Positions 16,901 through 64,000 of a stretch of 64,000 nt of DNA are shown one piece after another. This DNA is from a virus (Duplodnaviria > Caudoviricetes). The notes under the pieces were generated by a model. The model did not search any database and was not told the origin of the DNA. It saw only the letters and a program-made list of their open reading frames with translations. Positions within the stretch are counted from its first letter, which is position 1. Every line of letters starts with the position of its first letter. The translations under genes were made by a program, and so were the position numbers. The DNA lies in IMG/VR virus record IMGVR_UViG_3300028591_000106, positions 82,597-146,596 of that record, one strand, 5' to 3'.

Positions 16901-19789
16901 ATGAATAGGGTTTATTAGTAGATTTTACAAAATTTAATTAACTCTAACTTTTAGCTCCCTGAATAGAATAGCGATTTTTATGATTGGTTAGCACACATTG
17001 CAGAAGCCTTACCAAATGCTTCTGGAAAAATAGATTTGGATAGCAATCTCCCTTCTTATTAGGAGGGGGATGCTAATCCAGTTCCAGATTGGAAAACCTC
17101 CATATTTTATACCGATCCTGAAACGGGAGAGGAAGTAGCTAATCCATTATGGAATGAATCTGTAAAACAGCTATGGGATGCTATAAAAGAGTATAGTAAA
17201 TAGCCTACTGGTGAAAATGGGTATGATGAAAGAACGATTGATATTTATCTTGAAGATAAAAAAGATACGGATACTCCAATATCTTCTATGAGTTTAGATG
17301 ATATTCGTTATTCAGATGCCGGCACAAATTTTGTTTCATTACTGTCTAGTTATGATAAATATTTCGGACCTTGGGTTAAACCTTGGCGCAATGTAGATAA
17401 TTAGATTTATAAGGAAGTAAGAAGTGTTGACTATATCTTAAAACAAATATTGAACTACACATATCTATAGTTCACAACTTATTCTTCAATTGATGCCAGC
17501 ACTAGCCGCGGCAGGGGTATTATTCATGGATAGATGAGATTGCTAATGCCTAAAAATAGCCGCCATGTTATTGTCGAAGACCTGAATCGTAATTTTTGGG
17601 TGCTGGGCAATTCTATTGCTGGACTATGTGCATATTTATTTGGATCAGGATCTCCATTAAAAGATATTTATTCTCGTTTAACAAATGAGCTAATTCAATT
17701 ATGGGAGAATGTTATTTCATTGTGGCTTATGGCGGCACTCTCTATGTTAAAACCATGTACTGATATCCATGTTGAATTATTCTTTGTTCCAAATAGTATG
17801 TCAGAACCATATAAGAAATATGACAATTTTGATTTATTTTAGAACATTCCTGCAACAAAAGAAGATATCATTAACAATACTGTAGCATATGCAAGAAAGT
17901 ATCAAAACTCTAATTGCATCATGTTTCCAATGATTAGAAAAAATAACTATGAGAAAAATTATTTTGATTGGATTCTTATCCCCTTTGTTATCTTTATTAT
18001 CAGAGAGGGAAATGGAGAAGAAAAAGTTATTGTTCAGGAGTTAAGAGACACTCAAAATTATTGGGTACAAGCTCATCCAGTTGACTATGCTCAAAAATTG
18101 TGGTGTGCTAGAGAGACTCCATTAGAATATTACTATTCTTATCCTCTTAGTGAGATTCCAATAAAAGAAGATATTTCTCAAATGGCTCATAAATTTTATT
18201 CTGGCTTTAGACCTCATTTATCTTTTACGGAAAAAGGATATGAGAAGGGTAGCTTATATTTAAAAGATCTTGAAATATCATTCACCGATGCAATAGGAGA
18301 AGCTTTTGCTAAAGATGATTTAACAACATTAAGTTTTAAAATCAATAAGCTGACTTCTGCTTTAGGTGAAGGGTATATAAATTAGACTATTAAAGAAGAA
18401 GTTAATTCAAGTTAGGATTCAACGGATGTATTGACAGCTAGACCGACAGGAGGATCTTTTACAGGTTATTATCTTGGAGATTTTCCTTCTGCTTGTGATA
18501 TAAGTGTCTAGGGTAAACATTTCAAAGTTGTTTCTGAAAACAGTCTCGCAACTTAGGCTAAGCTAATTAAAATTGGACAGTATCTTCCAAAAGTATATAA
18601 CACAAGAACGGGGATTTAGACAGCAGATATTTATTCTGACCCTTCTTATTTCCATCCTCAATATAATAGTAGCCATCAAGAAACTAGCTATGAATTAAAT
18701 TATACTCCAAATGATAAGAGTAGGTATCCTGGTACTGGAATGCCTATTGATTCATGTGATTTCTATGTTTGTGATCCAAATTCATATTGCTTTAAGAGGA
18801 AAGTAGATTTAAATGAAAATCCTTCTGAAACTAATTCTGCTTGGACTAAATTAAAAGATATTGGAAATGAAGTTATTTCAGAATTTTTACACAATAAGAA
18901 TACTGATAAAATAACATATCTTATGGCGGCAATTGGAGTAAGACCTTGGCGTAATGAAGATACTAAACCAAATGCTTGGTAGAAATAGGGGTATTGGACA
19001 AATACTATCTTAACGCATATGTATCGTTTTATTCCACATAAGTTAATTGACTTTTGGGATAAATATGGTAAGTCAAAGGATGTAGAAGTATATGAATTTA
19101 ACATCAATGGTTAGAAATGTTATTTGGAATGCTTAGGCTTTGTTGGAAAAGATGAAACTGCTTTTGGCGGAACGGTTAACTTTAAGTAGGTAGTAACAAC
19201 ATGGAGATTGCCAGAGCTTCGTTCATATTATGATGATCACTATAATGACTTCCTTGAATTATAGGATGTTTACGATAAAGAAACTAAATATTACTTAGAT
19301 ATGGCAAAATATGACAGCACAGATCCTTTAAGGCAAAAATATGAAGAAGGTAAGCAAAGCGGCGATTGGACTTAGTTTGAAGATTTCTTGAGTGATAATT
19401 ATCGTGATTATAAAGACGATTTCCTTCCAGCAATTAAAGTCGGTGAAGACATTACTACCTTAGCTGGATTATGGAATGTTTATGACGGCAATGTTAAAAT
19501 GCTAGAATCATATCCACAACCTGCAGAACTGAATCATAAATATCATAATTAGCTTGTATATGATGATCAGGGAAGAACTTGTAGATATAGAGAAGTTGGT
19601 AGCTTGTATTTCAATTTTGTAAATAATTCAATAGTGTTACCAACTGAAACAACTCCAGTGACGATTAATAACTCACAATATTGGGCTTACTGTCGTGCAT
19701 AGAATGAACAGAATCCAAAGAAAGTCAATGGAACTTATATTATGATAATAAACGATGACATAATTTAGCAATACACAATTCATTTTTAA
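16901..19789 (+). CDS. large hypothetical (probable virion) protein, 962 aa, paralog B (many TAG, tandem TAG-TAG at codons 6-7)
   Basis: One open frame with TAG=Q; shares RLLMPK..VEDLNRNFWVLG..QLWEN with paralog A. Confidence 0.85.
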
Positions 19790-37050: not shown

Positions 37051-38229
37051 ATGTTTTATATTGTGACGGGAGCAAATTATGGAGACGAGGGAAAAGGTCT
37101 TGTGACTAATGCTTTTGCAAGTGAAGACTGCCTTGTCGTATTGAGCACTGGATCGTCTCAGCGCGCTCATACTGTTGTACATGACGGGAAGAGAATTGTC
37201 TTTCGTCACTTTGGTAGCGGCACTCTTAAGGGTGCCGCGACCTATTTTGCGAAGGATTTTCTTGTAAACCCTGCTATGTTTAGACAGGAGTATCTGAAGT
37301 TAGAAGCTATGGGTATTACGCCCGTAGTTTATATGCATGAAGATTGTGCATTCGTAACTCCAGTAGATATGTTCGCAAGTATAAATATTGAATCAAGACG
37401 CGAAAATCGTCATGGTACTACTGGATGCGGCGTTTGGGAAGCTATTCGCCGTGGCAAATATGTTGGAGAAATTACTGAAGCTCGTAGAGTAGAAGATGTC
37501 GGATGTATTGACAGTGATTTGATTAAATACTATGAACATCGTCTTGCAGGCATTGAAGATGAAATTCCGCAGGTTGCACTAGACTTTTTGCACGGTCCAG
37601 CATTAGCACACAATTTTAGACAAGATGTAGAATTCATGTTGGATCATATCAAACTTATTCGTTACGATGAAGAAAAGTCATTCCTTCATAAATGGAAAGA
37701 TATTATCTTTGAAAATGGTCAGGGACTACTTCTCGACACAGATTATGTAGGGGAAAGTATATATACTACACCTTGCCATGTTGGTGCGCGTATTCCTGCA
37801 AGAATTATCTTTGAGAATTTTGCAGGCGAAAATCCACAGGTGGAGTCTATCTATGTAACGAGGACCTATCTTACTCGTCATGGCGCAGGTGATTTTGCTA
37901 ATGGTAGTGCAGGTACAACTCTGTATAGCAATCTTTCTCCATATATGACGGAAGATAAGACTAATGTTCCTAATTTTGGTCAAGGTTCTATCCGTTACGA
38001 AGCTTTTGATAATGCAGCAGGTCATGATTTAGTTCGTCGTATTAACGATGATACTAATATTCTTCGCAGCTATGGCATTGATGCATCAATTTCTCTTGCT
38101 GTAACTCATACAAATGAATTTGCATTAGAGAATTTGACACAGCAAATGATATTTAGCAATCCTTATCATTATAAATATAGATTATATACATCTGATAATG
38201 AGGCTACACTCAATTTAGAAGGGGAATAA
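37051..38229 (+). CDS. divergent adenylosuccinate synthetase-like protein
   Basis: GANYGDEGKG, AHTV, HGTTGCG, FENGQGLLLD, TRTYLTRHGAG. Confidence 0.85.
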   Translation: MFYIVTGANYGDEGKGLVTNAFASEDCLVVLSTGSSQRAHTVVHDGKRIVFRHFGSGTLKGAATYFAKDFLVNPAMFRQEYLKLEAMGITPVVYMHEDCAFVTPVDMFASINIESRRENRHGTTGCGVWEAIRRGKYVGEITEARRVEDVGCIDSDLIKYYEHRLAGIEDEIPQVALDFLHGPALAHNFRQDVEFMLDHIKLIRYDEEKSFLHKWKDIIFENGQGLLLDTDYVGESIYTTPCHVGARIPARIIFENFAGENPQVESIYVTRTYLTRHGAGDFANGSAGTTLYSNLSPYMTEDKTNVPNFGQGSIRYEAFDNAAGHDLVRRINDDTNILRSYGIDASISLAVTHTNEFALENLTQQMIFSNPYHYKYRLYTSDNEATLNLEGE

Positions 38230-38479: not shown

Positions 38480-39400
38480 ATGACGGAATTTTATATGATG
38501 ATCGGAATTGCAGGTTCTGGTAAGTCTTTCATTGCAGAGAAGTATGCTCGTTTGCATAATGCTGTTATTGTATCTTCTGATGCAATTCGTGGTGAACTTT
38601 TTGGTGATGAGAATGACCAGACGCATAATGCCGAAGTTTTCGAGGAGGTTCATCGTCGTATTCTGAACGCTCTTAAGGCAGGACAGAACGCGATTTATGA
38701 TGCAACGAATCTTTCTGCAAAGCGCCGCAAGGCATTTTTAACGCAGATCCCTGCTGATGTGGAGAAGATCGCTGTGGTTATTGCTACGGATCTCGATGTT
38801 GCTCTGCGTCAGAATGCAAGCCGTGATCGTCAGGTCCCGCCTGATGTTATCAAGACGATGCTTCTGCGCCTTCAGATGCCTCGTATCAGCGAGGGTTGGA
38901 ATGGTATTGACTACATTTCTAACCCTAACAACAAGAGTGATATTCTTTCTGTCATTAAGCCTTGCGTGGGCTTCGATCAGGATAACCCTCATCACTCTGC
39001 TGAGCTGTTTGACCATATGCAGCAGGCGGCGCAGTATGTCACGATTCATGCTCATGAGTATGGATTCAGTGGTATGGATGAAGCAGAAGTCTATATTGCT
39101 GCACTTATCCATGACATCGGTAAGCCTATTTGTAAGACATATAAGCTGTGGAGTGGAAAGATCGACGATCATGCACATTACTACGGTCATGCCGATGTTG
39201 GTGCATATATGGTCGCTTGCTTACTTCGCACTGTTCCTGCAGAGGATTACGGTCGTTGGATGACGATTCTTGAGCTGATTCAGTATCATATGGACTGCTA
39301 TGCAAGTGACGACTGGCTTGAAAAAATTGATCGTGAAAAGGGTAAGGTTTTCCGTGATAAGATTGCTTTACTTCACGAGGGGGATAAGAATGGACACTGA
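38480..39400 (+). CDS. polynucleotide kinase (P-loop) fused to an HD phosphohydrolase
   Basis: GIAGSGKS, SSDAIR, DATN, NASRDRQVP; HH..H, IHDIGKP, HYYGH, YHM. Confidence 0.88.
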   Translation: MTEFYMMIGIAGSGKSFIAEKYARLHNAVIVSSDAIRGELFGDENDQTHNAEVFEEVHRRILNALKAGQNAIYDATNLSAKRRKAFLTQIPADVEKIAVVIATDLDVALRQNASRDRQVPPDVIKTMLLRLQMPRISEGWNGIDYISNPNNKSDILSVIKPCVGFDQDNPHHSAELFDHMQQAAQYVTIHAHEYGFSGMDEAEVYIAALIHDIGKPICKTYKLWSGKIDDHAHYYGHADVGAYMVACLLRTVPAEDYGRWMTILELIQYHMDCYASDDWLEKIDREKGKVFRDKIALLHEGDKNGH

Positions 39401-40353: not shown

Positions 40354-40587
40354 ACGGCAGGATAACAGCAATCTATAAAATACAAATTTTATAATAGAGT
40401 ATTGCTAAAATTTTTCTAACCTATTGGGCGCCGAAGAGCCACGGTTAGCGTCGCAGACTACGCAAGTTTGCCGTGGGCTACCCACGAGAGGGGTGGCAGC
40501 AATGATTGCTAAAAGTCATCGGACTAATCGCTACTGCGTGAAAGAGCGATGTAGGGAGACTAAACCTGAAACAAAATTTCCTGTCGT
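40354..40587 (+). ncRNA. putative Y-like RNA 1 (234 nt, multi-hairpin cargo)
   Basis: Terminal stem ACGGCAGGA/TCCTGTCGT followed by TAACAGCAA; GC-rich interior with GNRA-capped hairpins. Confidence 0.6.
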
Positions 40588-40594
40588 GTTATTT

Positions 40595-40668
40595 GCCCGC
40601 GTAGCAGAATTGGCATATGCGTCCGACTCAAAATCGGAAGTTTGTGGGTTCAACTCCCACCGTGGGCA
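40595..40668 (+). tRNA. tRNA-Leu(CAA), short variable loop
   Basis: Cloverleaf; TCCGA-CTCAAAA-TCGGA anticodon arm; GTTCAAC T-loop. Confidence 0.88.
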
Positions 40669-40671
40669 CTC

Positions 40672-40727
40672 AGTCACCAACAGCTAAAACATATTATTAA
40701 AACTTCCAATTTTAAGAATAGGTGACT
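40672..40727 (+). ncRNA. putative Y-like RNA 2 carrying an anticodon stem-loop
   Basis: Stem AGTCACC/GGTGACT, then AACAGCTAA; inner TTAAAA-CTTCCAA-TTTTAA. Confidence 0.6.
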
Positions 40728-40733
40728 AGTCTT

Positions 40734-40786
40734 AGATTCATACAGCAACTCATATTATTTTAATTGGGTAGAATTAAATTGAATCT
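40734..40786 (+). ncRNA. putative Y-like RNA 3
   Basis: Stem AGATTCA/TGAATCT, then TACAGCAA; CATATTATT shared with RNA 2; inner TTTAATT-GGGTAG-AATTAAA. Confidence 0.6.
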
Positions 40787-40804: not shown

Positions 40805-42277
40805 ATGAATTTTACAGATGCTATGAGAGGCGCAGCTAACCACACTCTTACTGAGAATGGTGCGGCTGTCTATAAGACCACCGGCAATGCAGTCCTTGAC
40901 CTATTTGCCAGAATTGGTGGTATGCGTAATGCAGATCCTCGTGAAGTTGAAGCAGCTTGGCTTCGTGCCCGCGACTTCGATAAGGAGCTTGCAGATAATC
41001 TGATTCTTTATACCCGTAACATTCGTGAGGGCGGTCTCGGTGAGCGTAAGCTCGGTCAGATTATGCTTAAGCTGCTTGCTTTGAAGGATCCTTCTAAGGT
41101 TGCAAGAAACCTCGACACCATTGTCGCGGCTGGTCGTTATGATGACCTGTTTGTACTTCAGGGTACTAAGGTCGAGACCAGTATGATGGAGTACCTGCGT
41201 GCGCAGTTCCGTCAGGACATTGTTGACATGGGGCAGGGCAAGCCTATTTCCCTTCTGGCAAAGTGGCTGCCTTCTTGCAACGCAAGTTCTAAGGAGACTC
41301 GTAAGCTGGCTCGTAAGATGTATGTCTATTTTGGCATCTCTGAGCGCACTTACCGTAAGACTCTTTCTGCTCTGAGAAGCCATCTCGATGTTGTCGAGAA
41401 GAAGATGTCTGCTCAGGAGTTCGACGAAATTGACTATCAGAAGGTTCCTTCTGTAGCCATGACTCGTTACCGCTCTGCTTTCGGTCGTCATGACTTCGAG
41501 CGTTTTGGTGAATATCTTAATGCGGTAAAGAAGGGTGATGCAAAGATCAATGCATCTGTCACCTACCCTTACGAGCTTATTCGCCCTTACATCCTCGGCA
41601 GAAGGGGCTGGGGTTGCCGTACAGCAGCAGCTCTTGATCCTGTTCTTGAGGCACAGTGGAAGGCTCTTCCTAACTATGTCGAGGGCAACCATAATGTTAT
41701 CGTCATGTGCGATACTTCTGGTTCTATGACCTGCGACAACTGCAAGCCTCTTGCAACTTCTGTTTCTCTTGGCATTTACTTTGCGGAGAGAAATACTGGT
41801 GCTTATCAGAACCTCGTTATGAGCTTCTCTCAGTCTCCTGTTTTCTATGAACTGAATCCTCATGATTCTGTTCTTAACAGAACAAATGAGATCCTTCGTC
41901 ACGATCAACTGAACACCAACCTCGACGCAGCTCTTGATGCGGTATACCGTCTTGCAGTTAAGAGTGGAGACGCTCCTTCTGCACTCGTCATCATCTCTGA
42001 TGGTGAGATTGACAGCTACCGTTACCAGAATGCTGCTGACATCGTTGAGAAGTGGCAGGCGATTTATGCAGGAAGCGGTATGGTCGCTCCTAAGCTTATC
42101 ATGTGGAATGTTGAGTCTCGTGGCTCTCGTTACATTGGTAAGAAGGAGAACCCCGGCATTGCATACATCTCTGGTTCTTCTGCTTCTAGCTTCAAGGAGC
42201 TGGCAACGCTGATCTCTATGGATGCAGTTACCGCAATGACTCGTATCCTGACCAAGCCTCAGTTCCAGTGGAAGTAA
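40805..42277 (+). CDS. Ro60/TROVE-related protein (DUF2828-type helical domain + vWA)
   Basis: TENGA..Y.TTG..VLDLF, RNIREGGLGER, GRYDDL, AKWLPS, YRKTLS, VVEKKM, VPSVAM; MIDAS DTSGSM, ISDGEID, WNV. Confidence 0.85.
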   Translation: MNFTDAMRGAANHTLTENGAAVYKTTGNAVLDLFARIGGMRNADPREVEAAWLRARDFDKELADNLILYTRNIREGGLGERKLGQIMLKLLALKDPSKVARNLDTIVAAGRYDDLFVLQGTKVETSMMEYLRAQFRQDIVDMGQGKPISLLAKWLPSCNASSKETRKLARKMYVYFGISERTYRKTLSALRSHLDVVEKKMSAQEFDEIDYQKVPSVAMTRYRSAFGRHDFERFGEYLNAVKKGDAKINASVTYPYELIRPYILGRRGWGCRTAAALDPVLEAQWKALPNYVEGNHNVIVMCDTSGSMTCDNCKPLATSVSLGIYFAERNTGAYQNLVMSFSQSPVFYELNPHDSVLNRTNEILRHDQLNTNLDAALDAVYRLAVKSGDAPSALVIISDGEIDSYRYQNAADIVEKWQAIYAGSGMVAPKLIMWNVESRGSRYIGKKENPGIAYISGSSASSFKELATLISMDAVTAMTRILTKPQFQWK

Positions 42278-55717: not shown

Positions 55718-56860
55718 ATGCTTAAGATTCAGGAGTTTATCCTTGCACACGATAACTGGCGTGAGCTTCTGTCTACTGCGCCTTATAACCTAAAGATTTC
55801 TGAGGATGACGGTTTTGTCCTCTTCAAGTACAACCAGATCAACTCCGATTTCTCTCAGGAGATCTGCAAGGAGGCTCGTGGTCTTATCCTTGATACTCAG
55901 GACAACTTCCGTGTAGTTCGTTATGCCTTCAAGAAGTTCTTCAACATCGACGAGAACTACGCAGCTCATATTGACTGGGATACTGCTGTCGCATCCGAGA
56001 AGATTGACGGCTCTATCATGTCCGTATGGTATGCTCGTGATAAGTGGCACCTGTCTACCAATGGCACCATTGATGCATTTAAGGCAGAGATCTCTGGTGT
56101 AGGTCCTTACAAGACCTTTGGAGACCTGTTCGAGTCTGTATGTCCTATGTCTACTTTCACCTACTTTGATAAGAATAAGTGTATCACTTTCGAGCTTGTC
56201 TCTCCTTACACTAAGGTAGTTATCGACTATCCTAAGACTCAGGTATATGTGCTTTCTATCCGTAATATGACCACTCTTGACGAGTATTCTATTGACTATC
56301 TTCAGGCTTGGGCTGACGCTAACGCTTTTGCTACTCCGCAGGTATATTACCTTAACAGCCAGTCTGACTACCGTAAGTTGGTAGAGGATATGCCTGACGG
56401 TCATGAGGGTATCGTTGTGCGTGACGCAAACGATAACCGTGTAAAGATCAAGACCCTTCTGTACTTCCAGATGCATCGCGCTCGTAACAACGGCGTTCTT
56501 ACTCTTGAGCGTGCGATAGAGCTGATCTTGGCAAATGACCATGCAGAGTTCCTGTCTTATTTTCCTGAGTACACTAACTACTTTGACGCTGTTGCGGCTG
56601 TAATCAATGGGGTTACTCTGGTTGCACAAAACTGGGATGCAGCTCACTTTGCTTCTCAGTGGCAGCAAAAGTTTTCTGAGAAGGTTGCCAAGAAGCAATT
56701 TGCTATCGAGTTCGCAAAGACTAAAGCAGGTGGATTGCAGGCTTTGGCATTTAAGTGCTATGACGGAAATGGCGTAAAGTGGCTTTCTACTCTTACTGCG
56801 GCTCAGTGGACTCGTATGTTTGCACACCAGTTTTCTCTTATTAAGGAGGTTACTCTGTAA
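55718..56860 (+). CDS. ATP-dependent RNA ligase, T4 Rnl1-like
   Basis: EARGLIL, KKFFN, EKIDGS, FELVSP, EGIVV, RVKIK. Confidence 0.9.
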   Translation: MLKIQEFILAHDNWRELLSTAPYNLKISEDDGFVLFKYNQINSDFSQEICKEARGLILDTQDNFRVVRYAFKKFFNIDENYAAHIDWDTAVASEKIDGSIMSVWYARDKWHLSTNGTIDAFKAEISGVGPYKTFGDLFESVCPMSTFTYFDKNKCITFELVSPYTKVVIDYPKTQVYVLSIRNMTTLDEYSIDYLQAWADANAFATPQVYYLNSQSDYRKLVEDMPDGHEGIVVRDANDNRVKIKTLLYFQMHRARNNGVLTLERAIELILANDHAEFLSYFPEYTNYFDAVAAVINGVTLVAQNWDAAHFASQWQQKFSEKVAKKQFAIEFAKTKAGGLQALAFKCYDGNGVKWLSTLTAAQWTRMFAHQFSLIKEVTL

Positions 56861-61414: not shown

Positions 61415-61618
61415 ATGAAACAAGTATATCTACTTTTCGGCACACCAAAAGATATTGGATGTGATCGAATTCTTGCAGTATACTCTTCATATGAAGCAGC
61501 TCAGGCAGATTTTCAAAGCTGGATGGCGGCGGAAGAGTATAATCCAAATCCTCAGTTTGACGGACTTTATATTTTGCCGTTTACCGTTCACGATCATCCT
61601 ATGGGGGTAAAGCTATGA
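61415..61618 (+). CDS. hypothetical protein
   Basis: GGAG SD. Confidence 0.6.
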   Translation: MKQVYLLFGTPKDIGCDRILAVYSSYEAAQADFQSWMAAEEYNPNPQFDGLYILPFTVHDHPMGVKL

Positions 61619-61830
61619 ACCAGACCTTTACCCTCTATGACAATGAAAAGAAATAGATTGTCGATGACGAAATTACTATAGTTCAGTTTATTGATTTTTA
61701 CCTTAGTGATATAGAAGATTTAGACTCTCATCCCGAAAAGCATAGGCGTAAGTGTTTCTTGATGAAGTTGAATCACTTGGCGCGTAAGGAGAATTTTGTT
61801 TTTCGGAATTTTGAATTTTCAAAAAATTGA
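61615..61830 (+). CDS. hypothetical protein (1 TAG)
   Basis: ATGA-coupled. Confidence 0.5.
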
Positions 61831-61855
61831 CTTTTTATGAAAAATATGCTATAAT
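61827..61855 (+). promoter_or_regulatory. sigmaA-type promoter of the tRNA array
   Basis: TTGACT-N17-TATAAT. Confidence 0.8.
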
Positions 61856-61883
61856 ATTTATAGAAAAGTTAAAAAAGAGATAA

Positions 61884-61957
61884 TTCCGGTTCGTCTAACG
61901 GTAGGACGCCTGCCTTTGAAGCAGCGAATAGGGGTTCGATTCCCTTACCGGAAACCA
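61884..61957 (+). tRNA. tRNA-Gln(TTG)
   Basis: Cloverleaf, loop CTTTGAA, T1-A72, encoded CCA. Confidence 0.92.
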
Positions 61958-61967
61958 ATGAATCTAT

Positions 61968-62041
61968 GGGCTTGTGGCGTAACAGGTTAGCGCTTCCGGC
62001 TCATAACCGGCTGGTTCTGGGTTCGAGTCCCAGCAAGCCCA
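61968..62041 (+). tRNA. tRNA(CAT), probably Ile2 (lysidine type), otherwise Met
   Basis: GGGCTTG acceptor stem, CCGG-CTCATAA-CCGG arm. Confidence 0.85.
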
Positions 62042-62045
62042 CTCA

Positions 62046-62161
62046 TAGACATTGTCAGCAAATTCGTATTTTTATACAGGTTAGCTCAGAGGACTAGAGC
62101 ACTCTGGTAAAAACAGAGAGATCATGGGTTCGAATCCCATACCGGCGTGAAAAGATGTCTA
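62046..62161 (+). ncRNA. putative Y-like RNA 4 with an embedded tRNA-like domain
   Basis: Stem TAGACATT/GATGTCTA then GTCAGCAA; intact D, anticodon and T arms but mispaired acceptor stem and no CCA. Confidence 0.65.
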
Positions 62162-62169
62162 GTTTATAA

Positions 62170-62243
62170 TGCCACATCGCCAAGAGGGTTAAGGCGCCGG
62201 TCTCTGAAACCGGTATTCGCAGGTTCGAATCCTGCTGTGGCAA
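62170..62243 (+). tRNA. tRNA-Gln(CTG)
   Basis: CCGGT-CTCTGAA-ACCGG, T1-A72. Confidence 0.92.
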
Positions 62244-62344
62244 TCCCGTCGCCCATAGGACGGAAGGTTTTAGGTGCTGTAGGGAGCTATGGGAATCCTC
62301 CCAGCTCAATGAGGTTCTGAAAAATGGATCCGCCTAGCCATCAT

Positions 62345-62418
62345 TGCCGTTTAGTGAAGTGGTAACACACCGGTCTCTAACACCGCAAGCGTGGGTTCGA
62401 ATCCCTCAACGGCAACCA
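62345..62418 (+). tRNA. amber suppressor tRNA(CTA), Gln-type
   Basis: Acceptor TGCCGTT/AACGGCA + ACCA; anticodon loop CTCTAAC; resembles the adjacent tRNA-Gln(CTG). Confidence 0.9.
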
Positions 62419-62421
62419 AAT

Positions 62422-62495
62422 ACGGGTGTGGTGTAACGGTAGCATGACGGTCTCCAAAACCGCAGATAGGGGTTCGATTCCCTTCATCCGTGCCA
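62422..62495 (+). tRNA. tRNA-Trp(CCA)
   Basis: Loop CTCCAAA, G73, encoded CCA. Confidence 0.92.
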
Positions 62496-62504
62496 ATTAA
62501 AAAT

Positions 62505-62533
62505 TTGACTTTTTCTTAAAATTATGATATAAT
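62505..62533 (+). promoter_or_regulatory. sigmaA-type promoter
   Basis: TTGACT-N17-TATAAT. Confidence 0.8.
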
Positions 62534-62743
62534 AATTACAGAAAAGGTTGAGGAAATGGCAGATGCAATAGCATCAGCAGTTATGTCAACCAAACTTGGT
62601 AGCACCGGAGTTTTTAAGATTGAGTTTTCAAGGTGCAGGCTTGTAAGTGGTAGCTTAAACTTTCCAGTTAATGTGGCAGACAATCTTACCTTCTGTTAAA
62701 AAGGTTTTTGTTTCGCACCTGCAAGCGTTATTGCAGGGTTCGA

Positions 62744-62818
62744 CGGGATGTAGCTCAGTTTGGCTAGAGCGCCTGCTTTGGGAGCAGGAAGCCGCAGGTT
62801 CGAGTCCTGTCATCCCGA
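62744..62818 (+). tRNA. tRNA-Pro(TGG)
   Basis: CGGGATG acceptor, CCTGC-TTTGGGA-GCAGG. Confidence 0.95.
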
Positions 62819-62819
62819 T

Positions 62820-63097
62820 TCAAGACCTTACCCACTTTTCTAGGAAGTGTATTGGTAAGGCTGCTACGATGAAAATGGCATTATAGCATCCGGCTCTGAG
62901 ATAATGTCAAAGCCCATGCAGATTGGGTGAGAGCAGGTTTGGCATCGTTACTGCTCATTTATTGCGTTGGTTGACCGCATATAGTCTACTCGGTTCGCAA
63001 GGAGCCGTGTTACCTAGTAACTCCTATCATGGAAACCCCCTTCGTGAAAGTTGATTAAACTCTGTCGCTACGGCGTCAGTGCTTGAGGGAGACTTGA
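62820..63097 (+). ncRNA. unassigned structured RNA (about 280 nt)
   Basis: Run of hairpins between two tRNAs, no ORF. Confidence 0.55.
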
Positions 63098-63102
63098 TAC
63101 AT

Positions 63103-63177
63103 GGCGCCATCGTCTAATCGGTTTAGGACATCACCCTTTCAAGGTGAAGATTACGGGTTCGAATCCCGTTGGCGTCA
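63103..63177 (+). tRNA. tRNA-Glu(TTC)
   Basis: TCACC-CTTTCAA-GGTGA. Confidence 0.92.
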
Positions 63178-63186
63178 TCAAATATT

Positions 63187-63320
63187 ATCTATGTGGTGGA
63201 ACGGGCAGACACATTTGGGGTGAATCCGTGCCATTGGCAGAAGGAAACCGATCCGAGGAGAAACCCTATGTTATTCACTCGGGAGAGAATAGCGTGCAGG
63301 TTCAAATCCTGTCATAGATA
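63187..63320 (+). ncRNA. tRNA-like RNA with an expanded anticodon domain
   Basis: ATCTATG/CATAGAT acceptor, Leu-type D arm, long variable arm, GGTTCAAATCC T arm; about 40 nt in place of the anticodon loop. Confidence 0.7.
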
Positions 63321-63326
63321 ATAAAT

Positions 63327-63400
63327 GCCCTTGTACTCCAACCGGCAGAGAGAGCGGTTTTAGAAGCCGTATAGTGAGGGTTCGATTCCCTTCGAGGGCA
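63327..63400 (+). tRNA. tRNA-Leu(TAG), short variable loop
   Basis: GCGGT-TTTAGAA-GCCGT. Confidence 0.85.
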
Positions 63401-63499
63401 CTCACGCTAAGTTTCGGATTTTTCTTAGCGTAGGTCTATACAGTCACGAGCAATCTGTGCAAATGTCCAGTAATAGAGATTTGTAAGTGACTGTTTAAT

Positions 63500-63574
63500 G
63501 CGGCATTCGTATAATGGTTATTACATTGCGCTTCCACCGCGAAAATGGGGGTTCGATTCCCCTATGCCGCTCCA
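63500..63574 (+). tRNA. tRNA-Gly(TCC)
   Basis: GCGGCAT acceptor, loop CTTCCAC, TCCA end. Confidence 0.92.
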
Positions 63575-64000
63575 AGGGGAGCTGCTATGTGCATTATGGA
63601 GTCAGCACAGGCTCCGGCAGTTTCCTCTACCAACAGTGCCTAACACGCCTCTTTACAATGCGTACCAAGTTAGGTCTTTTAATGCACTGGGGAAGAAAGT
63701 CACCCCGAACAAGATGATCTAATCATTCAATTAGGACCTCCGTCCGGTTCGCCGGCGAGCAATGAAAGTATCCAGTCTTTCTTAAGGATTCGAGTTCAAA
63801 ACCTTTCCGCTTTTCGGGGTTTTCCGTTAAATAAACCTTATCATAGTAGATGCGAAATCGGGCGGCGTACACTAATGAGCGCAAATAACTAGCAAATCGT
63901 AATATATTAGCTAGCGAGGAGTGAGGAAGTTTGCGTGGGAAATCGTCGTTACCCAAAGTGGCGCGGGAACTGCTTCCGATGCTGTAGGTTCCTTACTATG
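63575..64000 (+). ncRNA. large structured RNA region, probably continuing past the window
   Basis: GC-enriched, dense nested stems, UUCG tetraloop, no credible ORF. Confidence 0.55.

What the first reader, a model, noticed from the sequence alone, without database searches (positions are those of the whole stretch)
62046..62161. tRNA-like domain nested inside the same stem + CAGCAA handle (YrlA-like architecture)
Seen: D arm (GCTC-AGAGGACTA-GAGC), anticodon arm (CTCTG-GTAAAAA-CAGAG) and T arm (ATGGG-TTCGAAT-CCCAT) are intact. The acceptor stem has mismatches, there is no CCA, and the loop has a non-canonical G32 with an AAA triplet. The whole unit is enclosed by TAGACATT/GATGTCTA followed by GTCAGCAA. 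A tRNA scanner would call it a pseudo-tRNA, but the shared handle ties it to the Ro60-like locus.
Basis: partly seen in the sequence, partly recalled or inferred. Interest (0 to 1): 0.75.

Follow-up and report, generated by a model that had tools for sequence, protein, structure and literature searches.

The report
tRNA-shaped phage RNA on Ro60-type handle
This is a conserved phage RNA gene in which a complete tRNA look-alike is clamped by a short "handle" that, across very different phages, travels with a Ro60-shaped protein gene, so it is most likely a Y-RNA-like partner of that protein and not a decaying or ordinary tRNA.

Summary
At 62046-62161 (+) a cloverleaf sits in natural order: D arm, 5-bp anticodon-like stem with loop GUAAAAA, T arm and a 5/7 acceptor helix with no CCA. 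It is enclosed by UAGACAUU/GAUGUCUA, with UCAGCAA just after the 5' strand.

It is not a dying tRNA. The element holds the same slot of the tRNA operon in every relative fetched. Its D, anticodon and T stems covary, and the loop core UAAAA never changes (6 nt in most relatives).

The same stem plus (A/U)CAGCAA closes dozens of other RNAs in phage tRNA arrays. Most of these carry a permuted, YrlA-type tRNA-like core. Viral records with this module encode a DUF2828 protein in 27 of 30 cases, against 1 of 25 controls, usually on the same strand and often within 5 kb. The window's DUF2828 protein (40805-42277) is predicted to fold as Ro60. Cultured E. coli, Listeria, Enterococcus and Mycobacterium phages carry handle RNAs beside their DUF2828 gene, with different but complementary stems.

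Best reading: a Y-RNA-like RNA, laid out like D. radiodurans Yrn1 rather than YrlA, whose handle binds the Ro60-like protein. Binding and function are inferred. This scan has noted the family before on other DNA; Rfam 15 gave no match above threshold and my paper searches found no description.

The parts
61827..61855 (+). Sigma-70-type promoter (TTGACT, 17 nt, TATAAT) ahead of the tRNA operon that contains the element
   Evidence: 11 of 12 consensus matches. A consensus match only; expression was not tested.
62046..62053 (+). 5' strand of the closing (outer) stem, UAGACAUU
   Evidence: Conserved in relatives. UAGACAU/AUGUCUA changes to UAGACAC/GUGUCUA in L016 and L126.
62054..62061 (+). Handle: spacer G plus heptamer UCAGCAA (family consensus ACAGCAA), unpaired, on the 5' side only
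   Evidence: The same heptamer stands in the same position in dozens of viral-contig elements and in cultured phages.
62062..62074 (+). U-rich 5' linker. It could pair with the A-rich 3' linker and extend the acceptor helix, which would leave the handle as a one-sided bulge.
   Evidence: Read from the sequence. U-rich/A-rich linker pairs recur in L016 and L017. The pairing is inferred.
62075..62081 (+). Acceptor-like helix, 5' strand (UACAGGU)
   Evidence: 5 of 7 paired in the window's clade, 7 of 7 in L016 (after shifting the script's D-loop register by one base), 6 of 7 in L126 and L129.
62084..62100 (+). D arm (GCUC / AGAGGACUA / GAGC) with A14 and G18-G19 equivalents
   Evidence: one pair has changes on both sides, and 100% of cells are paired within the clade.
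62102..62118 (+). Anticodon-like arm: 5-bp stem and loop GUAAAAA, with the invariant core UAAAA
   Evidence: 4 of 5 pairs have compensatory changes. The loop is 6 nt (GUAAAA) in L012, L013, L131a, L017 and L016, and 7 nt (YUAAAAC) in L126 and L129.
62124..62140 (+). T arm (AUGGG / UUCGAAU / CCCAU)
   Evidence: 2 pairs have compensatory changes. The T loop is canonical.
62141..62147 (+). Acceptor-like helix, 3' strand (ACCGGCG). It is followed by U and GAAAAG, not by CCA.
62154..62162 (+). 3' strand of the closing stem (GAUGUCUA) plus the conserved following G
   Evidence: The RNA-like elements nearly always end ...GUCUA-G, whereas the coding-sequence chance matches mostly do not.
40805..42277 (+). 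Presumed protein partner: a DUF2828 + DUF7788/vWA protein with a predicted Ro60 fold, 21 kb upstream on the same strand
   Evidence: Pfam. AlphaFold2 model with pLDDT 90.4 and pTM 0.89. All of the best Foldseek PDB hits are Ro60/Rsr chains aligned over the full length, E about 1e-8 to 3e-6, TM 0.4-0.59.
40354..40786 (+). Further stem + ACAGC(A/U)A modules with other stem sequences in the leader of the DUF2828 gene: 40354-40587, 40672-40727 and 40733-40786. They are context for the 'shared handle'.
   Evidence: Each alone is near the roughly 19% background of the stem test, but they are consecutive and share the register AG-N5, 1-2 nt, ACAGCWA.

Best explanation
The element is a gene for a stable non-coding RNA of about 116-127 nt. 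It is transcribed as the third unit of the phage tRNA operon and would be released when the flanking tRNA-Met (ends 62042) and tRNA-Gln (starts 62170) are processed. It has two modules. The first is a handle: a 7-8 bp helix formed by the two ends, with the unpaired heptamer UCAGCAA one or two bases after the 5' strand. The second is a full tRNA-shaped domain in natural order. Its acceptor end is not free, because it runs on into the linkers and the closing stem, and its anticodon-like loop carries an invariant UAAAA in a loop that is usually 6 nt long, which is unfit for normal decoding. By analogy with Ro60 and Y RNAs, the handle is the docking site for the phage's Ro60-fold DUF2828/vWA protein (40805-42277). 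The tRNA-shaped domain is the displayed cargo that brings a tRNA-recognising factor to the ring, or keeps one away from real tRNAs. Candidates are tRNA-processing or modifying enzymes, the phage's own RNA-repair enzymes (Rnl1-type ligase at 55718-56860, kinase/HD protein at 38480-39400), or a host anticodon nuclease. Shown here: the anatomy, its conservation with compensatory changes, the co-occurrence and proximity of handle RNAs and DUF2828 genes, and the predicted Ro60 fold. Inferred: that the RNA is expressed, that it binds the protein, and which factor the tRNA-like domain engages.
For: 1. Conservation. The element is present in the same array slot in all relatives fetched through the upstream 275-aa gene.
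2. Covariation. Seven pairs have changes on both sides within the five closest sequences, a value that 0 of 500 shuffles reach, and 92.9% of cells are paired against 28-55% when partners are slid. More distant homologs have wholly different but complementary D, anticodon and T stems and an invariant UAAAA loop core.
3. Shared module. The outer stem plus handle closes dozens of other RNAs in IMG/VR phage tRNA arrays. By a simple T-loop-position test on 86 distinct pattern matches, 41 look permuted, 16 have the T arm near the 3' end like this one, and 29 have other interiors; a minority of the 86 are chance matches in coding sequence. The reversed-pattern control gave 0 hits in 31 records.
4. 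Link to YrlA. Some permuted members give sub-threshold but significant Rfam YrlA matches, 37-45 bits with E 1e-5 to 3e-7.
5. Co-occurrence. DUF2828 is found in 27 of 30 module-bearing viral records (10 of 10 among those at least 90% complete) against 1 of 25 control records.
6. Position. Module and gene are on the same strand in all but one record and within 5 kb in ten records, for example 186 nt upstream of the gene in G021.
7. Cultured phages. Four of four sampled carry handle RNAs directly beside the DUF2828 gene, with stem sequences that differ but stay complementary: E. coli phage vB_EcoM_E9, Listeria phage WIL-1, Mycobacterium phage JoeDirt and Enterococcus phage VRE9_4.
8. Protein fold. 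The DUF2828 protein is predicted to fold as Ro60.
9. Precedent. Ro60 proteins of bacteria and phages bind Y RNAs encoded nearby. One class carries tRNA-like domains, and D. radiodurans Yrn1 is described with a 5-bp 'anticodon' stem and a 6-nt loop in the non-permuted orientation.
Against: No expression or binding data exist for this RNA or for any member of the handle family that I could find. In this phage the element lies 21 kb from the DUF2828 gene, outside the 4-kb rule used for YrlA. The handle lacks the GNCGAA/CGAA motif through which known Ro60 proteins are thought to recognise Y RNAs, so the analogy rests on architecture and fold, not on a shared binding motif. The co-occurrence controls were random viral records, not matched for genome size or for possession of tRNA arrays, and the module-bearing records are not phylogenetically independent. 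In this element the first handle base is U (UCAGCAA), not A. The window's own loop has 7 nt with U33 and AAA, so a decoding role cannot be excluded for this copy from sequence alone.
Confidence: 0.68

Rival explanations
1. It is a genuine, if odd, tRNA (tRNA-Phe with anticodon AAA, reading UUU). Its 5' leader and 3' trailer happen to pair. RNase P and 3' processing remove the stem and handle, CCA is added, and the RNA is charged.
For: ARAGORN calls tRNA-Phe(aaa). The Rfam tRNA score of 41.4 bits is above the gathering score of 29. The window copy and L126/L129 have 7-nt loops with U33, AAA and a purine at position 37. The D and T loops keep the nucleotides needed for the L shape. M. smegmatis YrlA is cleaved by RNase P and receives CCA in vivo, so processing of tRNA-like Y RNAs has a precedent. 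The genome is AT-rich, at 36.8% G+C.
Against: Five of the eight homologs compared, including four of the window's five closest relatives, have a 6-nt loop, GUAAAA. Acceptor mismatches at 2:71 and 4:69 are kept in the whole clade; in L017, 4:69 changes on both sides and stays mismatched. The Rfam match is local and excludes the acceptor. The leader and trailer are conserved in sequence and shared with RNAs that have permuted or non-tRNA interiors, which a processing by-product would not be. An ordinary tRNA-Phe(GAA) lies in the array of relative L016. From general knowledge, an unmodified A34 is very rare in bacterial-type decoding.
Confidence: 0.1
2. It is a tRNA decoy or sponge that works on its own. 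The tRNA-shaped body, or its UAAAA loop, occupies a host anticodon nuclease or another tRNA-targeting defence. The closing stem only stabilises the RNA against exonucleases and has no link to DUF2828.
For: The phage carries tRNA-repair-type genes, an Rnl1 ligase and a kinase/HD protein, which fits a conflict over tRNA. The loop core is invariant while the stems vary, which points to sequence-specific recognition of the loop. A blocked acceptor end and a 6-nt loop suit a non-decoding mimic.
Against: It does not explain why the handle heptamer is conserved on the 5' side only, in phages whose stems differ. It also does not explain why handle RNAs track DUF2828 genes in presence, strand and position. 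A decoy role is compatible with the best explanation if the Ro60-like ring is part of the trap.
Confidence: 0.12
3. It is a processing or punctuation structure of the tRNA operon, or a DNA-level inverted repeat bound by a protein, with a degenerate tRNA trapped inside. It has no function as an RNA product.
For: It lies between tRNAs, 3 nt after tRNA-Met and 8 nt before tRNA-Gln. Complementarity alone cannot tell an RNA helix from a DNA inverted repeat.
Against: The interior cloverleaf is under selection, with compensatory changes in three stems. The module is asymmetric (heptamer on one side only) and strand-specific. G.U pairs occur in the stem (window U62053.G62154; L051 and L053). No other tRNA of the operon has such a structure. 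Elsewhere the module occurs outside tRNA arrays, directly beside DUF2828 genes.
Confidence: 0.05
4. It is a pseudo-tRNA in decay.
For: Imperfect acceptor helix, no CCA, and an odd loop.
Against: It is retained in the same slot in relatives whose neighbouring protein is only 43-62% identical, with compensatory changes and an invariant loop core.
Confidence: 0.02

Closest known systems
Deinococcus radiodurans Yrn1 (Y RNA bound by the Ro60 orthologue Rsr)
   Same: As described by Chen et al. 2014 (PMC4201824), the 5' and 3' ends form the protein-binding stem. The tRNA-like part is in the non-permuted orientation, with a T arm and a 5-bp 'anticodon' stem closed by a 6-nt loop. That is exactly the loop length in most relatives of this element.
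   Different: Yrn1 has no full D arm, no variable loop and no acceptor-like helix; this element has all three. Yrn1 carries the metazoan-like Ro-binding helix, while this element carries UAGACAU/AUGUCUA plus UCAGCAA. The partner here is a DUF2828-type protein, not a Pfam TROVE-type one.
YrlA (Rfam RF02553), the tRNA-like Y RNA of bacterial and mycobacteriophage Ro60
   Same: A terminal stem with a protein-binding motif near the 5' end, plus a tRNA-like domain with canonical D and T arms. It is encoded in genomes that have a Ro60-fold protein. Permuted members of the handle family give weak YrlA matches of 37-45 bits.
   Different: YrlA is permuted (T arm, closed acceptor hairpin, D arm), has no anticodon arm, carries GNCGAA(N)G and lies within about 4 kb of Ro60. 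This element is non-permuted, has an anticodon-like arm, has UCAGCAA instead, lies 21 kb from the gene and gives no RF02553 match.
Thermus phage phiLo Ro60 with Yrl1/Yrl2 (PMC12135203; PDB 9KOP, 9L5Y)
   Same: A phage-encoded Ro60-fold protein with small stem-bulge-stem RNAs encoded in the same genome. 9KOP is the best structural match to the window's DUF2828 model.
   Different: Yrl1 and Yrl2 use a CGAA motif, have no tRNA-like domain and lie directly upstream of the gene. Sequence identity of the proteins is about 15%.
Class I RNAs of dictyostelid social amoebae (Kjellin et al. 2021, PMC7919456)
   Same: [quoted passage not shown] A conserved 11-nt motif stands directly after the 5' strand, and the interior is variable. 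The five positions the paper names as conserved (T3, C6, C9, A10, A11) all fit the 11 nt ending the window's handle, AUUGUCAGCAA (62051-62061).
   Different: Class I RNAs are 42-65 nt long, eukaryotic, have no tRNA-like cargo, and their known binder is an RRM protein (Rnp1A). No match to any Class I RNA family was listed in the permissive Rfam scans. The literal motif is not in the text I could read. Whether dictyostelids have DUF2828 was not tested.
Canonical tRNA (Rfam RF00005)
   Same: Cloverleaf with D, anticodon, variable and T elements, and conserved A14, G18-G19 and a UUCGAAU T loop.
   Different: The acceptor is 5/7 paired, not free and without CCA. G stands at position 32. The loop is 6 nt in most relatives. 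It is enclosed by a conserved stem and handle.

Membership tests
YrlA (Rfam RF02553) | Score at or above the family's gathering score (69 bits) | tested here: not met
   No RF02553 match in 61600-64000 even at E <= 10, and none at gathering over the whole window.
YrlA (Rfam RF02553) | Permuted tRNA-like core: T arm, acceptor hairpin closed by a loop, D arm; no anticodon arm | tested here: not met
   The order here is acceptor 5', D, anticodon-like arm, T, acceptor 3'.
YrlA (Rfam RF02553) | GNCGAA(N0-1)G motif near the 5' end | tested here: not met
   The 5' region 62046-62074 has no GNCGAA. It has GUCAGCAA.
YrlA / bacterial Y RNAs in general | Encoded on the same strand as, and within about 4 kb of, a Ro60 orthologue | tested here: inconclusive
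   Same strand but 21 kb away, and the protein is DUF2828-type with a predicted Ro60 fold. Family members in other phages lie within 0.2-5 kb.
YrlA / bacterial Y RNAs in general | Physically bound by the Ro60 protein | not testable with these tools
   Needs EMSA or co-immunoprecipitation.
Yrn1-type layout (D. radiodurans) | Terminal protein-binding stem enclosing a non-permuted tRNA-like part with a 5-bp 'anticodon' stem and a 6-nt loop | tested here: met
   Layout, compared with the description. The loop is 6 nt in five of eight homologs and 7 nt in the window. This is likeness of layout only; homology was not tested.
Canonical tRNA (RF00005) | Full-length match including a 7-bp acceptor stem with a free 3' end | tested here: not met
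   Local match over model positions 5-66 only. The acceptor is 5/7 paired, has no CCA and continues into the linkers and outer stem.
Canonical tRNA (RF00005) | 7-nt anticodon loop with pyrimidine 32, U33 and purine 37 | tested here: inconclusive
   The window has 7 nt but G32. Five of eight homologs have 6 nt. L126 and L129 are canonical (YUAAAAC).
DUF2828-associated stem + ACAGCAA 'handle' RNAs (no Rfam match above threshold; noted repeatedly in this scan) | 6-9 bp closing stem of the two ends, 1-3 nt spacer, then NCAGC(A/U)A on the 5' side only | tested here: met
   62046-62061 with 62154-62161. The same register is found in E9, WIL-1, JoeDirt and VRE9_4.
DUF2828-associated stem + ACAGCAA 'handle' RNAs | A DUF2828/vWA gene in the same genome, on the same strand | tested here: met
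   40805-42277 on the + strand. Family-wide, 27 of 30 records against 1 of 25 controls.
Dictyostelid Class I RNA | Match to the family's covariance model | tested here: not met
   No match to a Class I RNA family was listed at E <= 10.
Ro60 / TROVE protein family (for the presumed partner at 40805-42277) | HEAT-repeat ring plus vWA domain | tested here: met
   AlphaFold2 pLDDT 90.4. All of the best Foldseek PDB hits are Ro60/Rsr chains aligned over the full length. By sequence, only DUF2828, DUF7788 and weak vWA were matched; no Pfam TROVE match and no PDB sequence match to Ro60.

The most novel reading that the evidence does not exclude
DUF2828 proteins and stem + ACAGCAA handle RNAs form a second, undescribed branch of Ro60/Y-RNA particles. 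It is widespread in phages, including laboratory models (Felixounavirus, Listeria P100-like phages, cluster L mycobacteriophages). In it the handle is a universal adaptor and the cargo is interchangeable tRNA-derived material. In this element the cargo is a whole cloverleaf whose invariant UAAAA loop is the working part. The loop would act either as bait for a host anticodon-loop nuclease, or as an 'anti-anticodon' that pairs with U33-A37 (UUUUA) of tRNA-Lys(UUU), the classic target of anticodon nucleases, to shield it or to present it to the phage's Rnl1/kinase repair enzymes on the Ro60-like ring.
Probability: 0.15. Interest if true: 0.9.

Novelty: new variant of a known kind. Interest (0 to 1): 0.72.

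Why it matters
Ro60 and its Y RNAs are a conserved but still poorly understood RNA-surveillance particle, and Ro60 is a human autoantigen. If the reading holds, phages carry a large and very diverse second set of Ro60-fold proteins with their own RNA adaptor. That adaptor can be read directly from sequence (closing stem plus ACAGCAA). It displays tRNA parts in several arrangements: permuted, natural order as here, or anticodon arms only.

This gives three testable handles on the open question of what the tRNA-like domain of Y RNAs is for:
- A natural series of cargo variants on one adaptor.
- Genetically tractable phage-host pairs (E. coli and Salmonella Felixounavirus, Listeria P100-like phages, M. 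smegmatis cluster L phages).
- Neighbouring RNA-repair genes that point to the conflict over tRNA cleavage.

For annotation, it shows that some 'odd tRNAs' and 'hypothetical small ORFs' in phage tRNA arrays are genes of this RNA family.

Tried and rejected
- Exact 35-nt core search in viral contigs found nothing.
- The exact 16-mer of stem plus handle gave 10 hits, about what chance would give. The double hits in L004 and L009 are repeats inside a coding region.
- The search for related loci with the DUF2828 protein in viral contigs found nothing. Relatives were reached instead through the 275-aa gene upstream of the array. One look-up (P0130) returned no DNA.
- blastn of the array against cultured phages found only generic tRNA matches.
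- A pattern restricted to non-permuted cores found only 4 viral contigs, none close to the window.
- MAFFT misaligned the 5' ends of the divergent homologs, so I segmented them by hand in a script. L016's D loop was set one base too long there; the text gives the corrected reading.
- Covariance model R1, built from the five closest sequences, recovers the clade (126-143 bits) and L016 (73 bits). It scores ordinary tRNAs (up to 53 bits) above the distant homologs L074, L126 and L129 (about 40 bits), so it cannot delimit the family.
- A generic test (any 7-bp stem around ACAGCWA) has a background of about 19% with permuted control motifs. Isolated hits in the window at 17158, 43939 and 981 are therefore not credited.
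- The tRNA-like body is not close to any isoacceptor in the related arrays, so its origin is unresolved.
- A PDB search by sequence found only vWA domains. The Ro60 likeness appears only at the fold level.
- The supplement of Chen et al. 2014 and the 2020 Ro60 review are not held. I therefore could not check whether any DUF2828-type phage was in their YrlA lists.
- Paper searches for DUF2828, Ro-like and TROVE with phage RNAs found no description of these RNAs.

Full report
CONTEXT. The window is the last 64 kb of a 146.6-kb IMG/VR viral contig (89% complete, 36.8% G+C). From 61884 to the contig end runs a tRNA operon behind a near-consensus promoter at 61827-61855. Its third unit is the finding.

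The sequence shows these parts:
- Outer stem: 62046-62053 UAGACAUU pairs with 62154-62161 GAUGUCUA, 7 Watson-Crick pairs plus one U.G.
- Handle: G, then UCAGCAA (62055-62061).
- U-rich linker.
- Acceptor-like helix: 62075-62081 with 62141-62147, paired at 5 of 7 positions.
- D arm: 62084-62100.
- Anticodon-like arm: 62102-62118, CUCUG/GUAAAAA/CAGAG.
- 5-nt variable loop.
- T arm: 62124-62140.
- An A-rich linker instead of CCA.

ARAGORN calls tRNA-Phe(aaa). Rfam's tRNA model matches only positions 5-66, at 41.4 bits. None of the other ten tRNA-like genes of the window has a leader-trailer helix longer than 6 bp. The outer stem is part of the minimum-free-energy fold.

IT IS CONSERVED AND COVARIES. 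No close relative is in IMG/VR or among cultured phages. I therefore reached relatives through the 275-aa gene just upstream of the array.
- Every relative that extends far enough has the element in the same slot. ARAGORN reports it there as a tRNA with a two-base anticodon, that is, a 6-nt loop.
- Within the five closest sequences, seven pairs of the D, anticodon and T stems change on both sides. No shuffle in 500 reaches this, and sliding the partners drops pairing from 92.9% to 28-55%.
- More distant homologs (L016, L126, L129) have entirely different but complementary stems. L016 has a perfect 7-bp acceptor, and the outer stem changes from U-A to C-G.
- The loop core UAAAA never changes. 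It reads GUAAAA in five homologs, GUAAAAA in the window and YUAAAAC in two.
- The two acceptor mismatches are kept throughout the window's clade.
- In L126 and L129 the T loop reads UUGGAAU and the D loop has GC in place of GG. This could be a swap of the tertiary 19:56 pair. That is my reading of the sequence and is untested.

A decaying pseudogene is excluded. An ordinary decoding tRNA is unlikely.

THE STEM AND HANDLE ARE A SHARED MODULE. A pattern for UAGACAY, a short spacer, CAGCAA, an interior, then RUGUCUA hit 105 stretches of viral contigs. By my estimate about 30 would be expected by chance. Most of those examined are RNA-like elements inside tRNA arrays that end in ...GUCUA-G, whereas the coding-sequence chance matches mostly do not. 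Of 86 distinct matches (a minority of them chance matches in coding sequence), a simple T-loop-position test sorts them as follows:
- 41 have the T arm in mid-element. In those I inspected, it is followed by an acceptor hairpin closed by a loop and then a D arm, which is the permuted YrlA design.
- 16 have the T arm near the 3' end, as here.
- 29 have other interiors, nine of them short (60-90 nt).

Many records hold one long and one short element, which recalls YrlA and YrlB. Some permuted members give significant but sub-threshold matches to Rfam YrlA, at 37-45 bits against a gathering score of 69. The match lies in the tRNA-like core and not in the stem. The window's element gives none.

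THE MODULE TRAVELS WITH A Ro60-FOLD PROTEIN.
- The 490-aa product of 40805-42277 is DUF2828 plus DUF7788/vWA by Pfam.
- Its AlphaFold2 model (pLDDT 90.4, pTM 0.89) has Ro60 chains as all of its best PDB matches, aligned over the full length. They include phage phiLo Ro60, Xenopus and human Ro60, and D. radiodurans Rsr. Sequence search alone does not see this.
- Of 30 viral records with the module, 27 encode DUF2828, including 10 of 10 among those at least 90% complete. The three without it are incomplete records (8%, 17% and 74% complete).
- Of 25 control records, which were chance or unrelated pattern hits, 1 encodes it.
- Module and gene share a strand in all but one record. They lie within 5 kb in ten records and 14-26 kb apart in most of the large genomes, as here.
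- The controls are not matched for genome size or tRNA content, and the records are not independent. The figure is therefore strong but not final.

CULTURED PHAGES SHOW THE SAME DESIGN WITH OTHER STEMS. DUF2828 homologs occur in 709 cultured phage records, some annotated 'Ro-like RNA binding protein'. All four records I opened have handle RNAs beside the gene:
- E. coli phage vB_EcoM_E9 has four right after the gene (AGACCNN, 2 nt, NCAGCAA ... NNGGUCU), one of them with a permuted tRNA-like core.
- Listeria phage WIL-1 has three right before the gene, with stems AGGAAUC, AGAGAGC and AGGAAGC and their complements.
- Mycobacterium phage JoeDirt has three in the 360-nt gap after the gene, the middle one with a permuted tRNA-like core (Rfam YrlA 39.8 bits).
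- Enterococcus phage VRE9_4 has one in the leader of the gene.

The helix is therefore kept by compensation, while the heptamer and its position are constant. The window itself has three further modules with other stems in the leader of its DUF2828 gene. Each alone is near the 19% background of my generic test, so I count them only as context.

HOW IT MOST LIKELY WORKS. Known Ro60 proteins bind the terminal stem of Y RNAs, and the rest of the RNA recruits or blocks other factors. Bacterial YrlA carries a tRNA-like domain that tRNA enzymes recognise. D. radiodurans Yrn1 is drawn in the non-permuted orientation with a 5-bp 'anticodon' stem and a 6-nt loop. A phage Ro60 binds two small RNAs of its own genome and engages host PNPase.

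By analogy, the handle of this element docks on the DUF2828 ring and the cloverleaf is the displayed cargo. The phage's Rnl1-type ligase and kinase/HD protein, and the RtcB, RNA ligase and HD genes next to DUF2828 in the Listeria phage, point to tRNA damage and repair as the arena. Which factor reads the UAAAA loop is open. It may mimic a Phe-type loop. It is also complementary to U33-A37 of tRNA-Lys(UUU). Both ideas are speculation.

COMPARISON AND NOVELTY. The element works like a Y RNA but fails the membership tests for YrlA: no model match, no permutation, no GNCGAA. It shares layout, not demonstrated homology, with Yrn1.

The paper confirms the same design: a short covarying terminal stem, a conserved 11-nt motif directly after the 5' strand, and a variable interior. 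Its five named conserved positions fit the window's handle. No Class I RNA family was listed in the permissive Rfam scans, and the link is untested beyond that.

The handle family has been noted many times in this scan on other DNA. Rfam 15 gave no match above threshold, and I found it in none of the papers I could search. This element is a new variant within it: a whole tRNA cloverleaf in natural order on the handle.

Noticed in passing
window 62345-62418; L013 9658-9731 and 14938-15010; L016 11662-11735 and 15171-15243: tRNA with anticodon CUA (amber suppressor; ARAGORN labels it 'Pyl') in the operon. Relatives carry two such genes, and ARAGORN also calls a tmRNA-like gene in them (e.g. L013 15352-15695). 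This may mean that TAG is read through or recoded in this phage group.
   Followed up: no
window 63639-63675: Match to Rfam abiF RNA (39 bits, gathering score 37) just after tRNA-Gly, at the start of an unassigned non-coding stretch that runs to the contig end.
   Followed up: no
window 40595-40669: ARAGORN 'tRNA-Leu(caa)', 75 nt and thus too short to hold the long variable arm of a bacterial tRNA-Leu. It sits between handle modules in the leader of the DUF2828 gene and may be another tRNA-like cargo rather than a working tRNA-Leu.
   Followed up: partly
window 40354-40587, 40672-40727, 40733-40786: Three stem + ACAGC(A/U)A modules with different stems (ACGGCAGGA, AGUCACC, AGAUUCA) upstream of the DUF2828 start codon. 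The last lies in the leader just before the ribosome-binding site, as does a similar module in Enterococcus phage VRE9_4 (L135 3895-3954).
   Followed up: partly
L131 11084-11199 and 11447-11544: One relative carries two handle-clamped tRNA-like RNAs about 250 nt apart. The second is of the L126/L129 type but lacks the acceptor 5' strand and part of the D arm.
   Followed up: no
L126 5274-5392; L129 3589-3704: T loop UUGGAAU together with a D loop that has GC where GG is usual. This is possibly a compensatory swap of the tertiary 19:56 pair, which would argue for a kept L shape.
   Followed up: no
L133 (Listeria phage WIL-1) 4462-5013: ROOL-like RNA (87 bits, below the gathering score of 99.1) in a tRNA array full of tiny annotated 'hypothetical' ORFs, just upstream of the handle RNAs and the DUF2828 gene. 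RtcB, an HD protein and an RNA ligase follow the gene.
   Followed up: no
L038 1353-1480 and 1687-1785; L036 2668-2766: In one group of 116-220 kb phages, a RAGATH-33 RNA (in L038) and a separate YrlA-like sub-threshold match lie next to the handle element (L038 1855-1970), so several structured RNAs cluster there.
   Followed up: no
window 62505-62533: A second near-consensus promoter (TTGACT, 17 nt, TATAAT) inside the tRNA operon, after tRNA-Trp.
   Followed up: no
window 55718-56860, 38480-39400, 37051-38229: Rnl1-type RNA ligase, an AAA_33 kinase fused to an HD domain, and an adenylosuccinate-synthetase-like gene. The first two are typical tRNA-repair equipment of phages.
   Followed up: no
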